64,000 bases of DNA from Escherichia coli. GTDB taxonomy: Bacteria; Pseudomonadota; Gammaproteobacteria; Enterobacterales; Enterobacteriaceae. The DNA lies in assembly GCF_016026235.1 (NCBI RefSeq), contig NZ_CP065613.1. One strand, given 5' to 3'. The notes under the pieces are model-generated. The model saw nothing but the letters and a program-made list of their open reading frames with translations, did not search any database and was not told where the DNA came from. The position numbers were made by a program, and so were the translations under genes. Below, one piece after another: positions 30,998 through 37,949 of this stretch. Every line of letters starts with the position of its first letter. Within the stretch, counting starts at the first letter, position 1.

Positions 30998-31321
30998 TTG
31001 CGTATTCTTTTTGTCTGTTCGCTATTGTTACTTTCTGGATGCAGCCATATGGCTAACGATAGCTGGAGCGGGCAGGATAAAGCTCAACACTTTATCGCCT
31101 CGGCGATGCTTTCCGCCGCCGGAAATGAATATTCACAGCATCAGGGGATGAGCCGGGATCGCAGTGCCATGTTTGGATTGATGTTCTCTGTCAGTTTGGG
31201 GGCGTCAAAAGAGCTTTGGGATAGCCGCCCCGAAGGGAGCGGCTGGAGCTGGAAGGATTTGGCCTGGGATGTCGCCGGTGCAAGCACCGGCTATACCGTC
31301 TGGCAACTGACCCGTCACTAA
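30998..31321 (+). CDS. yfiM: Lipoprotein YfiM
   Basis: Track ORF 30977..31321; likely TTG start at [15 protein letters not shown] (lipobox LSGC) with GGAGG 8 nt upstream; 107 aa. Confidence 0.8.
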
Positions 31322-32616
31322 AGACGCATCCCCTTCCCTTTGCGATGTAGCATCAAAGAAACCAGAAACGCCACCACGGCCATCAAGGTCACATACCAGA
31401 AGAAGGCTGTTTCCATTCCTATTGATTTCAGCGACAACGCTACGTACTCCGCCGAACCACCAAATATAGCATTAGCGACCGCATATGACAGACCAACGCC
31501 TAATGCGCGAACCTGTGCCGGGAACATCTCAGCCTTCAGTATTCCACTGATTGATGTATAAAAACTCACTATCAGCAGGGCACACATCACCAGACCAAAA
31601 GCGGCATAAGGCGAGGAAACGTTTTGCAATGCTGAGAGAATAGGAACGGTAAAAATGGCTGCCAGCGAACCGAAACATAACATTGAGGTACGGCGACCAA
31701 TCTTATCCGACAGCGCGCCAATGAGTGGTTGAATAAGCATGAATACAAACAATGCGGCAGTCATAATGCCACTCGCCACGTTGGCATGCATTCCCGCAGT
31801 ATTTACCAGATACTTCTGCATATAAGTGGTGAAGGTATAGAAACAAAGGGAGCCCGCAGCGGTAAAACCGAGAACCATGATGAATGCACGGCGATTGCGC
31901 CATAATCCTTTCAGAGATCCAGCTTCTTTTAAAGCGCGCGTTTCTTGTTGCGAAGTTTCATCTAATTGACGACGTAACCACAACGCCACAACAGCTAACA
32001 CAGCTCCTAACGCGAAAGGAATACGCCATCCCCACTCTCTGAGTGCAGCGTCTTCCATGGTGTGTTGTAAAACCACGACAACCAGTAGGGCTAGCAGTTG
32101 TCCGCCGATCAACGTCACATACTGAAATGATGCGTAAAAACCTTTGCGCCCTTCAACGGCAACTTCACTCATATAGGTGGCGCTGGTGCCATATTCTCCG
32201 CCAACGGATAATCCCTGAAATAAACGAGCGAAAAGCAATAATGCCGGAGCCCACGTACCTATAGTTTCATAACCTGGGAGGCAGGCGATAACCAGCGATC
32301 CGAAACACATCATACACACCGATAACAGCATCGATTTTTTGCGACCATGTTTATCGGCTATGCGGCCAAATAGCCAACCGCCTATTGGGCGCATCAGGAA
32401 TCCCGCAGCAAAAACACCTGCTGTTTGTAGTAGTTGAGTCGTCGTGTTCCCGGAAGGGAAGAAAATGTGGGCGAAGTAGAGTGAACAGAACGAGTAGACA
32501 TAGAAATCGAACCACTCGACCAGATTACCTGAAGAGGCCCCCACAATCGCCCAAATGCGGCGACGAGTATCACTACTTGTCAGTTTGCTGTCTGCCGTTA
32601 CAGTACTTTCAGCCAT
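31318..32616 (-). CDS. kgtP: Alpha-ketoglutarate:H+ symporter (MFS)
   Basis: Track ORF 31318..32718; start set at [20 protein letters not shown] (432 aa). Confidence 0.93.
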
Positions 32617-32688
32617 GCCATTATGTCTCCTGCCGTAATCCGATGCTTTTGTTGGTCGCTTTTGTTTATTTCTTTTGGTAAAGAAAAT

Positions 32689-32719
32689 GTTATACATTTG
32701 TTGCGTATCATTATGCAAC
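32689..32719 (-). promoter_or_regulatory. Candidate sigma-70 promoter of kgtP
   Basis: Minus-strand TTGCAT - 18 nt - TATAAC, ~70 nt upstream of the kgtP start. Confidence 0.5.
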
Positions 32720-32795
32720 CTTAACCATGAATTTAGTTAGCAGGAAAATGGTTATTGAGGAGCTTAAGGATAAATTTCTGGTAAGGAGGACACGT

Positions 32796-32858
32796 ATGGA
32801 AGTAGGCAAGTTGGGGAAACCGCATCCGTTGCTGAATCTGGCATATGTGGGAGTATAA
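32796..32858 (+). CDS. Candidate unannotated small ORF (20 aa, MEVGKLGKPHPLLNLAYVGV)
   Basis: ATG preceded at 7-nt spacing by TAAGGAGG (consensus Shine-Dalgarno), in the kgtP-rrfG intergenic region; no homology evidence. Confidence 0.2.
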   Translation: MEVGKLGKPHPLLNLAYVGV

Positions 32859-32894
32859 GACGCGCAGCGTCGCATCAGGCATTTTTTTCTGCGC

Positions 32895-32926
32895 CAATGC
32901 AAAAAGGCCATCCGTCAGGATGGCCT
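32895..32926 (-). terminator. rrnG operon terminator
   Basis: AGGCCATCC-GTCA-GGATGGCCT hairpin followed on the minus strand by a U-run, 14 nt downstream of the 5S 3-prime end. Confidence 0.75.
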
Positions 32927-32939
32927 TCTGCTAAATTTG

Positions 32940-33059
32940 ATGCCTGGCAGTTCCCTACTCTCGCATGGGGAGACCCCACACTATCATCGGCGCTACGGCG
33001 TTTCACTTCTGAGTTCGGCATGGGGTCAGGTGGGACCACCGCGCTAAGGCCGCCAGGCA
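32940..33059 (-). rRNA. rrfG: 5S ribosomal RNA
   Basis: 120-nt reverse-strand match to E. coli 5S rRNA (TGCCTGGCGGC...CAGGCAT). Confidence 0.95.
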
Positions 33060-33151: not shown

Positions 33152-36053
<2,902 letters not shown>

Positions 36054-36246
36054 TCACAACCCGAAGATGTTTCTTGCGATTCATCATCGTGTTGCGAAAA
36101 TTTGAGAGACTCACGAACAACTCTCGTTGTTCAGTGTTTCAATTTTCAGCTTGATCCAGATTTTTAAAGAGCAAATATCTCAAACATCACCCGAAGATGA
36201 GTTTTGAGATATCAAGGCAGGTGACTTTCACTCACAAACCAGCAAG

Positions 36247-36322
36247 TGGCGTCCCCTAGGGGATTCGAACCCCTGTTACCGCCGTGAAAGGGCGGTGTCC
36301 TGGGCCTCTAGACGAAGGGGAC
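36247..36322 (-). tRNA. gltW: tRNA-Glu in the 16S-23S spacer
   Basis: 76-nt reverse-strand match to tRNA-Glu(UUC) GTCCCCTTCGTCTAGAGGCCCAGGACACCGCCCTTTCACGGCGGTAACAGGGGTTCGAATCCCCTAGGGGACGCCA. Confidence 0.95.

Positions 36323-36407: not shown

Positions 36408-37949
<1,542 letters not shown>

What the first reader, a model, noticed from the sequence alone, without database searches (positions are those of the whole stretch)
32780..32858. Unannotated 20-codon ORF with a consensus Shine-Dalgarno between kgtP and the rrnG terminator
TAAGGAGG lies 7 nt upstream of an ATG that opens a 20-codon frame (MEVGKLGKPHPLLNLAYVGV, stop TAA). A perfect-consensus SD at ideal spacing in an intergenic region is unlikely by chance, and the ORF is divergent from the kgtP promoter. 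I know of no annotated gene here, and many small proteins in E. coli were only found by ribosome profiling.
Basis: seen in the sequence. Interest (0 to 1): 0.45.

Follow-up and report, generated by a model that had tools for sequence, protein, structure and literature searches.

The report
Known small gene yfiS, a yjaB remnant
The 20-codon ORF is real, but it is the already annotated and experimentally detected E. coli small-protein gene yfiS; it turns out to be the leftover 3' end of a decayed copy of the acetyltransferase gene yjaB that gained a start codon and a strong ribosome-binding site.

Summary
TAAGGAGG (32782-32789), a 6-nt spacer, an ATG at 32796 and a 20-codon frame ending in TAA at 32856-32858 are all present. 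The claim that the ORF is unannotated does not hold. The K-12 reference record carries the CDS yfiS (b4783) at exactly this position, and the window peptide differs from it only by Y10H. PGAP-annotated genomes lack yfiS because NCBIfam has no YfiS model.

New here: YfiS aligns codon for codon, in frame and through the stop, with the last 20 residues of the GNAT acetyltransferase YjaB (17/21 identical, E=1e-10). A 13-nt remnant of the yjaB RBS and start codon lies 40 nt upstream. The spacer-REP-terminator-5S flank downstream is shared with the yjaB-rrnE junction. So yfiS is a translated remnant of an internally deleted yjaB paralog. Its SD arose from the Val-Thr-Gly codons and its ATG from a Ser/Ala codon. 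The expressible form (SD + ATG + stop) was intact in all 16 E. coli lineages sampled and was not found outside E. coli. Function is unknown. The apparent coding constraint may be inherited or imported from yjaB. Already known; low interest.

The parts
32796..32858 (+). yfiS coding sequence: 20 codons plus TAA, MEVGKLGKPHPLLNLAYVGV. Ortholog of K-12 b4783 with one substitution (Y10H).
   Evidence: This exact peptide is in public protein collections as 'hypothetical protein [Escherichia coli]'; the K-12 allele is named 'Protein YfiS'.
32782..32789 (+). Shine-Dalgarno TAAGGAGG, 6 nt upstream of the ATG, perfectly complementary to 8 nt of the 16S 3' end.
   Evidence: Unchanged in 13 of 16 sampled E. 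coli lineages and TGAGGAGA in the other 3. It aligns with the yjaB codons GTT ACG GGA and with GTG ACG GGG in the C. amalonaticus relic.
32799..32851 (+). Block homologous to the 3' end of yjaB, in the same reading frame. 46/53 nt identical overall; the 41-nt core (32811-32851) is 95% identical.
   Evidence: (H70). BLASTP gives 17/21 identities, E=1e-10. The NCBIfam YjaB equivalog NF007807 matches at profile positions 129-145 of 147.
32744..32756 (+). GAAAATGGTTATT, a 13-nt exact remnant of the yjaB ribosome-binding region plus ATG-GTT-ATT (Met-Val-Ile). It is collinear with the 3' block.
   Evidence: A 5'-block alignment score this high was reached in 0.2% of 500 shuffles.
32748..32795 (+). 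In-frame upstream extension (MVIEELKDKFLVRRTR) linking the relic start to yfiS. It is the decayed, internally deleted body of the yjaB paralog. It is not conserved in frame and is not the annotated product.
   Evidence: The frame is broken by a 2-nt shorter spacer in the LP26, 82.0311, AVS0578 and 30345 lineages.
32856..32882 (.). REP-like palindromic unit (TAAGACGCGCAGCGTCGCATCAGGCA). Its first three bases are the yfiS stop codon in this lineage.
   Evidence: In other lineages a spacer of about 40 nt separates the stop from the REP. The REP assignment rests on resemblance to the known E. coli REP consensus and was not tested with a model.
32901..32929 (-). rrnG distal terminator hairpin (GGCCATCC / GGATGGCC stem followed by a U-run on the minus strand). 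It probably also ends or stabilises the convergent yfiS transcript; that role is inferred.
   Evidence: the minus-strand RNA 32862-32945 folds at -34.9 kcal/mol, z = -3.87, and 0 of 200 shuffles fold as well.
32942..33057 (-). 5S rRNA gene of rrnG, convergent with yfiS.
   Evidence: RF00001, 90 bits.
31318..32616 (-). kgtP (alpha-ketoglutarate permease), divergent from yfiS.
32617..32781 (.). Spacer that must contain the kgtP promoter and the yfiS promoter. The yfiS transcription start is not mapped.
   Evidence: RNAP-sigma70 holoenzyme binds the K-12 kgtP/rrfG spacer in genomic SELEX, where the peak was assigned to kgtP (PMC3946193). The consensus scan found no strong plus-strand promoter in the spacer.

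Best explanation
The ORF is yfiS, an already annotated E. coli small-protein gene. It is an independently transcribed, SD-led 20-codon cistron lying divergent from kgtP and convergent with rrnG.

Shown: a perfect 8-nt anti-SD complement sits 6 nt upstream of the AUG in a locally unstructured region. In K-12, initiating ribosomes were trapped at this start and a chromosomally SPA-tagged product was detected.

Shown here: the gene is the relic of an internally deleted paralog of yjaB, a GNAT peptidyl-lysine acetyltransferase gene. The frame, the peptide and the stop codon are those of YjaB residues 128-147. A remnant of the yjaB RBS and start codon lies 40 nt upstream. The downstream spacer-REP-terminator-5S flank is the same block that follows yjaB at rrnE in yjaA-negative strains. 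The SD arose by point changes in the Val-Thr-Gly codons, and the ATG arose from a Ser/Ala codon.

Inferred: the promoter lies in the 165-bp spacer, and the transcript ends at the REP or the rrnG terminator hairpin. The 3' half stays yjaB-like through descent and occasional gene conversion between the two rrn-distal flanks. The 20-aa peptide matches only the extreme C-terminus of YjaB (expected to be the last beta-strand of the GNAT fold, not checked against 2KCW), so it cannot be an acetyltransferase. It most likely has no strongly selected function; it is a translated gene remnant.
For: Identity with yfiS: (same position, 19/20 residues). Experimental basis: yfiS is listed among the western-blot-validated sORFs of Weaver 2019, with TIS read count 33; methods: Onc112 plus retapamulin, and SPA tags detected for 36 of 38 candidates. 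SD accessibility: (-2.7 kcal/mol, z=0.88).

yjaB origin: codon-for-codon alignment including the stop; 46/53 nt, plus the collinear 13-nt match at the yjaB start; shuffle p about 0.002 for the 5' block; 17/21 identities, E=1e-10; the only NCBIfam hit is the YjaB equivalog, positions 129-145 of 147; the flank downstream of yjaB in APEC E956 is homologous to the flank downstream of yfiS in ETEC4070/B2-type strains; median of two matching places per genome, of which the yjaB place was inspected in one record, H70.

Intermediate state: the C. amalonaticus relic matches YjaB residues 122-147 at 69% identity, E=3e-8, and has GCA in place of the ATG.

Distribution: SD + ATG + stop are intact in 16 of 16 sampled E. 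coli lineages as 20- or 17-codon alleles. A divergent Escherichia lineage is frameshifted, and E. albertii has lost both SD and stop. The other 77 kgtP loci fetched show no similarity above shuffled controls.
Against: Within E. coli the yfiS frame shows 8 synonymous against 6 non-synonymous variable sites (dN/dS about 0.29, binomial p=0.019), compared with 4:10 and 1:13 in the other two frames. One lineage carries an in-frame 9-nt deletion, and the stop position is kept across three different downstream contexts. This could mean the peptide itself is under selection. I could not separate that from constraint inherited or imported from yjaB, because I could not pair both loci from the same strains.

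The 5' relic match is short (13 nt). No transcription start or 3' end for yfiS was found in the datasets I could search. Translation has been shown in K-12, not in the window's strain. Salmonella, Shigella and E. fergusonii were not examined.
Confidence: 0.8

Rival explanations
1. YfiS is a functional microprotein maintained by selection. One version: it mimics the C-terminal strand of YjaB or other GNATs and modulates their folding, oligomerisation or activity. Another version: it is a soluble regulator of the neighbouring transporter KgtP.
For: There is an excess of synonymous change specific to the yfiS frame. The SD, ATG and stop are kept in all 16 sampled E. coli lineages, including an in-frame 9-nt deletion allele. 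The protein is detectable in K-12. The peptide matches the C-terminal segment of a solved GNAT (2KCW).
Against: The peptide tolerates loss of three residues (LLN) and substitutions at 6 of 20 positions within one species. The expressible ORF is lost or never completed in E. albertii, in a divergent Escherichia lineage and in Citrobacter. The initiation signal is low. The selection signal is confounded by homology with, and likely conversion from, yjaB. No phenotype or partner has been reported in the searchable literature.
Confidence: 0.13
2. The act of transcribing or translating yfiS matters, not the peptide. Divergent promoter competition could tune kgtP, or convergent transcription could buffer kgtP against read-through from the very strong rrnG operon, which lies upstream of kgtP on the same strand.
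For: The geometry fits: rrnG, the antisense of yfiS and kgtP are all on the minus strand in that order. RNAP holoenzyme binds this spacer in vitro. The peptide sequence is only loosely conserved while the SD and ATG are kept.
Against: The rrnG terminator is a very stable hairpin and a REP follows it, so little read-through is expected. No yfiS transcript ends have been mapped. Relatives with the same kgtP-rrnG arrangement lack the ORF. No experimental link exists.
Confidence: 0.05
3. A chance ORF and SD that is not meaningfully translated in this strain.
For: Genome-wide, about one TAAGGAGG-N6-ATG site is expected by chance (extrapolated). No expression data exist for the window's strain.
Against: In the 91 bases from upstream of the SD through the stop, the window differs from K-12 only at three positions inside the ORF (96.7% identity; alignment), so the SD, spacer and ATG are identical. 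Translation and protein were demonstrated in K-12.
Confidence: 0.02

Closest known systems
YfiS (b4783, YP_010051193.1), E. coli K-12 small protein from Weaver, Mohammad, Buskirk and Storz 2019
   Same: Same locus, strand, length, SD, start and stop; 19 of 20 residues identical.
   Different: One substitution (Y10H) plus two synonymous changes. The window's strain is not K-12: the 361-nt region spanning the kgtP-rrfG spacer is 96.4% identical to K-12.
YjaB (b4012), GNAT peptidyl-lysine N-acetyltransferase; NMR structure 2KCW
   Same: YfiS matches YjaB residues 128-147 in frame, with the stop at the same codon. Both genes are convergent with an rRNA operon, and both share the downstream spacer-REP-terminator flank.
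   Different: YfiS lacks residues 1-127, which is essentially all of the Pfam GNAT domain (residues 34-130). It therefore cannot bind acetyl-CoA or catalyse transfer. It has its own SD and ATG, created by mutation inside the former coding sequence.
Other recently discovered, poorly conserved E. coli small proteins without known function (the Weaver 2019 set)
   Same: Found by the same method. No predicted transmembrane helix and no recognised motif reported. Expression is low.
   Different: For yfiS a concrete evolutionary source, a yjaB paralog remnant, can be named. I found no mention of it in the discovery preprint text or in the other papers I could search.
Leader peptides and upstream ORFs that control a downstream gene
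   Same: A very short ORF with a strong SD in an intergenic region.
   Different: No co-directional gene follows it. The next feature is the convergent rrnG terminator and 5S gene.

Membership tests
YfiS (E. coli K-12 b4783) | Located between kgtP and rrfG on the strand opposite to both | tested here: met
YfiS (E. coli K-12 b4783) | 20-codon ORF with the same start, stop and near-identical peptide | tested here: met
   19/20 residues identical. DNA alignment.
YfiS (E. coli K-12 b4783) | Translated: initiation peak and detectable tagged protein | not testable with these tools
   Shown for K-12 in the literature, not for the window's strain. The SD, spacer and ATG are identical to K-12.
GNAT acetyltransferase (YjaB equivalog NF007807; Pfam PF00583, PF13508, PF13673) | Full GNAT domain including the acetyl-CoA-binding core | tested here: not met
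   YfiS scores 12-16 bits against a cutoff of 134 and covers only profile positions 129-145 of 147. The Pfam domains of YjaB span residues 34-130.
Gene remnant (pseudogene-derived smORF) | In-frame homology to the parent gene, including the parent's stop codon | tested here: met
Gene remnant (pseudogene-derived smORF) | Collinear traces of other parts of the parent gene and of its flank | tested here: met
   13-nt RBS + ATG-GTT-ATT match (short, p about 0.002). The shared downstream spacer-REP-terminator flank is shown.
De novo gene born from non-coding DNA | No homology of the ORF to any pre-existing coding sequence | tested here: not met
   The ORF is homologous, in frame, to yjaB. Only the SD and the ATG are new.
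Leader peptide / regulatory upstream ORF | A co-directional downstream gene or attenuator under its control | tested here: not met
   Nothing co-directional follows it; the convergent rrnG comes next.
Single-pass membrane small proteins (AcrZ/KdpF type) | A hydrophobic segment long enough to span the membrane (about 18 residues or more) | tested here: not met
   By inspection of the sequence, the last charged residue is K8, leaving a 12-residue uncharged tail (PHPLLNLAYVGV) that includes His and Asn. Weaver et al. report no predicted TM helix in any of their new proteins.

The most novel reading that the evidence does not exclude
YfiS is not a neutral leftover. It is a selected microprotein that mimics the C-terminal segment of YjaB, and by competing for that segment's place in YjaB or a related GNAT it tunes lysine acetylation. 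In that case a pseudogene fragment has been recruited as a regulator of its parent gene's product. The frame-specific excess of synonymous change and the 16 of 16 intact alleles in E. coli do not exclude this.
Probability: 0.07. Interest if true: 0.5.

Novelty: already known. Interest (0 to 1): 0.18.

Why it matters
The ORF itself adds nothing new.

Three smaller points are useful:
- The gene is missing from the PGAP annotation of every non-reference E. coli record I inspected, although the sequence is present in 5425 of 5426 complete genomes. NCBIfam has no model for it.
- At least one validated E. coli small protein is a translated fragment of a decayed paralog of a normal gene. It is not an invention from non-coding DNA.
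- Conservation and dN/dS signals for short ORFs next to repeated DNA such as rrn operons can be inherited or imported from a paralogous coding gene. They should not be read as selection on the small protein.

Tried and rejected
- Consensus promoter/terminator scan of 32560-32960: no convincing plus-strand promoter in the spacer. The scan also missed the obvious rrnG terminator, probably because stem extension consumes the T-run.
- Transcript ends: the Term-seq supplement of Adams et al. 2021 has no plus-strand ends at K-12 27258xx-272603x. Thomason 2015, the mBio version of Weaver 2019 and the EcoSal small-proteome review are not held. The Weaver preprint has no supplements held and its text does not name yfiS.
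- The supplements of the Enterobacteriaceae microproteome paper contain neither yfiS nor its peptide.
- RNA structure of the yfiS mRNA: not different from shuffles (z=0.41). Rfam finds nothing in the spacer. An sRNA or riboswitch reading was dropped.
- A purely de novo origin was rejected once the yjaB homology appeared.
- The 43- and 36-codon extended ORFs as the real product were rejected, because the register with yfiS is broken in several lineages and the K-12 annotation and initiation data support the 20-codon form.
- A same-strain comparison of yfiS and yjaB alleles, the proper gene-conversion test, could not be done. The search tool lists only the best place per record, and coordinates of the second locus are unknown.
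- The rows for E. albertii and LP26 are mis-registered by 1 nt through my own gap placement and should be ignored.

Full report
**1. Observation**

The sequence is as described, with one small correction. TAAGGAGG occupies 32782-32789 and is followed by ACACGT, which is 6 nt and not 7. The ATG is at 32796 and a 20-codon frame, MEVGKLGKPHPLLNLAYVGV, ends at TAA 32856-32858.

kgtP lies on the minus strand at 31318-32616. The rrnG operon lies on the minus strand to the right: 5S at 32942-33057, 23S at 33152-36053, a tRNA at 36250-36322 and 16S at 36408-37949. The ORF is therefore divergent from kgtP and convergent with rrnG.

TAAGGAGG-N6-ATG occurs once in the window against 0.02 expected. The only other TAAGGAGG is the complement of the 16S 3' end, so the SD is a perfect 8-nt anti-SD complement. 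Extrapolated to a whole genome, roughly one such site is expected by chance, so the motif alone does not prove a gene.

**2. It is an annotated gene**

The reference record NC_000913.3 annotates the CDS yfiS (b4783, YP_010051193.1, 'protein YfiS') at 2725925..2725987 (+), between kgtP and rrfG. Its product is MEVGKLGKPYPLLNLAYVGV. The DNA alignment shows it is the same ORF as the one in the window, with one replacement (Y10H) and two synonymous differences.

[quoted passage not shown] Its source reference is Weaver, Mohammad, Buskirk and Storz 2019. That study trapped initiating ribosomes with Onc112 and retapamulin, required elongating-ribosome density, and SPA-tagged candidates on the chromosome, detecting 36 of 38.

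The K-12 peptide is in public protein collections as 'Protein YfiS', and the window's allele is present as 'hypothetical protein [Escherichia coli]'. PGAP-annotated RefSeq records show only kgtP and rrf at this locus. NCBIfam has no YfiS model, which explains why.

**3. Distribution**

The 91-nt SD-plus-ORF segment matches in 5425 of 5426 complete E. coli genomes, and 5035 of them cover at least 80% of it.

I read the locus in 15 further E. coli strains spread over the identity range. All of them, like the window, have an SD (TAAGGAGG in 13 of the 16 sequences, TGAGGAGA in 3), the ATG, and an open frame of either 20 codons or 17 codons. The 17-codon form carries an in-frame 9-nt deletion and reads MEVGKLGKPYSLAYVEE. 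The stop stays at the same codon although the DNA after it differs between lineages: a REP fused directly to the stop, a spacer of about 40 nt before the REP, or IS3/IS110 insertions.

Outside E. coli the expressible form is absent:
- A divergent Escherichia genome deposited as E. coli (L009) has TAAGGAGA and a 1-nt deletion that gives a 12-codon frame.
- E. albertii (L010) keeps the ATG but has TGAGATGA in place of the SD and no stop within the 55 codons available.
- Of the 80 kgtP loci fetched (mostly Enterobacterales species, plus four Paraburkholderia), only L009, L010 and Citrobacter amalonaticus (L011) score above shuffled controls for similarity to YfiS.

Salmonella, Shigella and E. fergusonii were not among the loci returned and remain untested.

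**4. Where the ORF came from**

The sensitive search of the 91-nt segment returned a median of two places per genome. In one record the match lay under yjaB (H70).

- YjaB ends ...GRSEVDDLGKPYPLLNLAYVGA*. YfiS aligns with those last 20 codons in the same frame, with the stop at the same codon.
- The DNA is 46/53 identical, and the 41-nt core is 95% identical.
- BLASTP gives 17/21 identities, E=1e-10.
- The only NCBIfam model that YfiS touches is the YjaB equivalog NF007807, at positions 129-145 of 147.
- A second, collinear, exact 13-nt match (GAAAATGGTTATT, window 32744-32756) corresponds to the yjaB ribosome-binding region and its first three codons, Met-Val-Ile. A 5'-block score this high was reached in 0.2% of shuffles.

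The spacer therefore holds both ends of a yjaB-like gene that has lost roughly residues 17-117.

The flank agrees with this. In K-12, yjaB (annotated as peptidyl-lysine N-acetyltransferase) faces rrnE with yjaA in between. In the yjaA-negative strain APEC E956, yjaB is directly convergent with the 5S gene. There its downstream sequence (GCTGCCCCCTATC...GCGTAAGCTGGA, then the REP, then the terminator hairpin) is homologous to the sequence downstream of yfiS in ETEC4070/B2-type strains.

The C. amalonaticus relic is an intermediate. It reads ...RVTGRAEVDDPGRPYPLLHLRYQGASF*, which is 69% identical to YjaB residues 122-147 (E=3e-8), and it has GCA where E. coli has ATG. The codon alignment shows GTT ACG GGA in yjaB, GTG ACG GGG in Citrobacter and GTA AGG AGG in E. 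coli, so the SD arose by a few point changes. The ATG replaced TCT/GCA (ignore the two mis-registered rows there). The Pfam GNAT domains of YjaB span residues 34-130, so YfiS retains none of the catalytic core. YjaB has a solved structure, 2KCW.

**5. Is the peptide under selection?**

Among the seven distinct 20-codon alleles there are 8 synonymous and 6 non-synonymous variable sites in the yfiS frame. That gives dN/dS of about 0.29 and a binomial p of 0.019 against Nei-Gojobori site counts. The other two frames give 4:10 and 1:13.

This looks like coding constraint, but the frame is the yjaB frame, and the two loci sit next to near-identical rrn operons. The K-12, O55:H7 and window alleles carry AAA/AAG CCG YAT CCG TTG, which is the yjaB state at three sites clustered within 11 nt. 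Deeper lineages and E. albertii carry TCG/TCA at codon 11. C-terminal variants (A, V, E) recur at both loci. Both patterns suggest patchy gene conversion from yjaB.

I could not pair the two loci strain by strain, so selection on YfiS and imported constraint cannot be separated here. Two things argue against tight constraint: the peptide tolerates a three-residue deletion and changes at 6 of 20 positions within one species, and the ORF has decayed in sister lineages.

**6. How it works (best reading)**

Shown: a strong, accessible SD (local fold -2.7 kcal/mol, not different from shuffles) at a suitable distance from the AUG; and, in K-12, initiation complexes and a tagged product (literature cited above).

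Inferred: a promoter lies in the 165-bp spacer, which binds sigma70 holoenzyme in vitro, although that peak was assigned to kgtP. The transcript likely ends at the REP or at the very stable rrnG terminator hairpin (-34.9 kcal/mol, z=-3.87 on the minus strand). No transcript ends were found in the data I could search.

The product is a 20-residue soluble peptide matching the extreme C-terminus of YjaB. From general knowledge of the GNAT fold this should be the last beta-strand, but I did not check it against the 2KCW structure. The most economical view is a translated gene remnant with little or no selected function. The alternatives are a microprotein acting on YjaB, other GNATs or KgtP, or a cis effect of its transcription on kgtP or on rrnG read-through. 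Neither is excluded, and neither has any direct support.

**7. Novelty and verdict**

The feature is already known and annotated. I found no mention of the yjaB-remnant origin in the searchable literature. The discovery preprint says that only YnfU had an identifiable motif among the new proteins. I could not consult EcoCyc or UniProt commentary. The origin is a modest addition. It does not change the verdict: a correct observation, a correct guess that the ORF is translated, a wrong claim that it is unannotated, and low interest.

Noticed in passing
L101 (APEC E956) 560-770, compared with L098 (K-12 yjaB region): The yjaA presence/absence polymorphism next to rrnE has its breakpoint in the last two codons of yjaB. 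YjaB ends ...VGE* in the yjaA-negative strain, ...VGA* in K-12 and ...VGV* in two other strains. In the yjaA-negative form, yjaB is followed by the same spacer-REP-terminator flank as yfiS.
   Followed up: partly
L004 and L005 (about 1526 onward); L007 (1560-2526): IS3-family (strains Z1002 and 222) and IS110-family (strain 82.0311) elements lie just downstream of yfiS and replace the REP/terminator/5S junction. The yfiS frame and stop remain intact.
   Followed up: partly
window 32683-32700 and 32731-32743: Two blocks upstream of kgtP, AAATGTTATAYAWTTGTT and TTTARTTAGCAGG, are conserved across Escherichia, Citrobacter and Enterobacter. An imperfect palindrome, TTGCGTATCATTATGCAA, lies at 32701-32718. 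These are likely kgtP promoter or operator elements, and the second block may include the relic RBS of the yjaB paralog.
   Followed up: no
K-12 coordinate 2725589 (minus strand), equivalent to about 157 nt inside kgtP (window about 32460): The Term-seq supplement of Adams et al. 2021 lists a strong RNA 3' end inside the 5' part of the kgtP coding sequence, suggesting premature termination or processing of kgtP mRNA.
   Followed up: no
2 nt downstream of rrfG (window about 32940): A Keio-collection resequencing paper (PMC12054083) reports the same T-to-C change 2 nt downstream of rrfG in ten unrelated knock-out strains. This fits gene conversion between rrn-distal flanks, or a read-mapping effect.
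   Followed up: no
NZ_CP074354.1 (strain XJ5.2), hit H70: In one search this record shows only the yjaB place (one place in the record, covering 45% of the query) and no match at the yfiS locus. Its yfiS segment may therefore be deleted or rearranged, although the call gives no genome-level check of this.
   Followed up: no
window 36061-36169 (minus strand): An Rfam StyR-44 match (122.9 bits) lies between the tRNA and the 23S gene of rrnG. This is a routine hit in enterobacterial rrn spacers.
   Followed up: no
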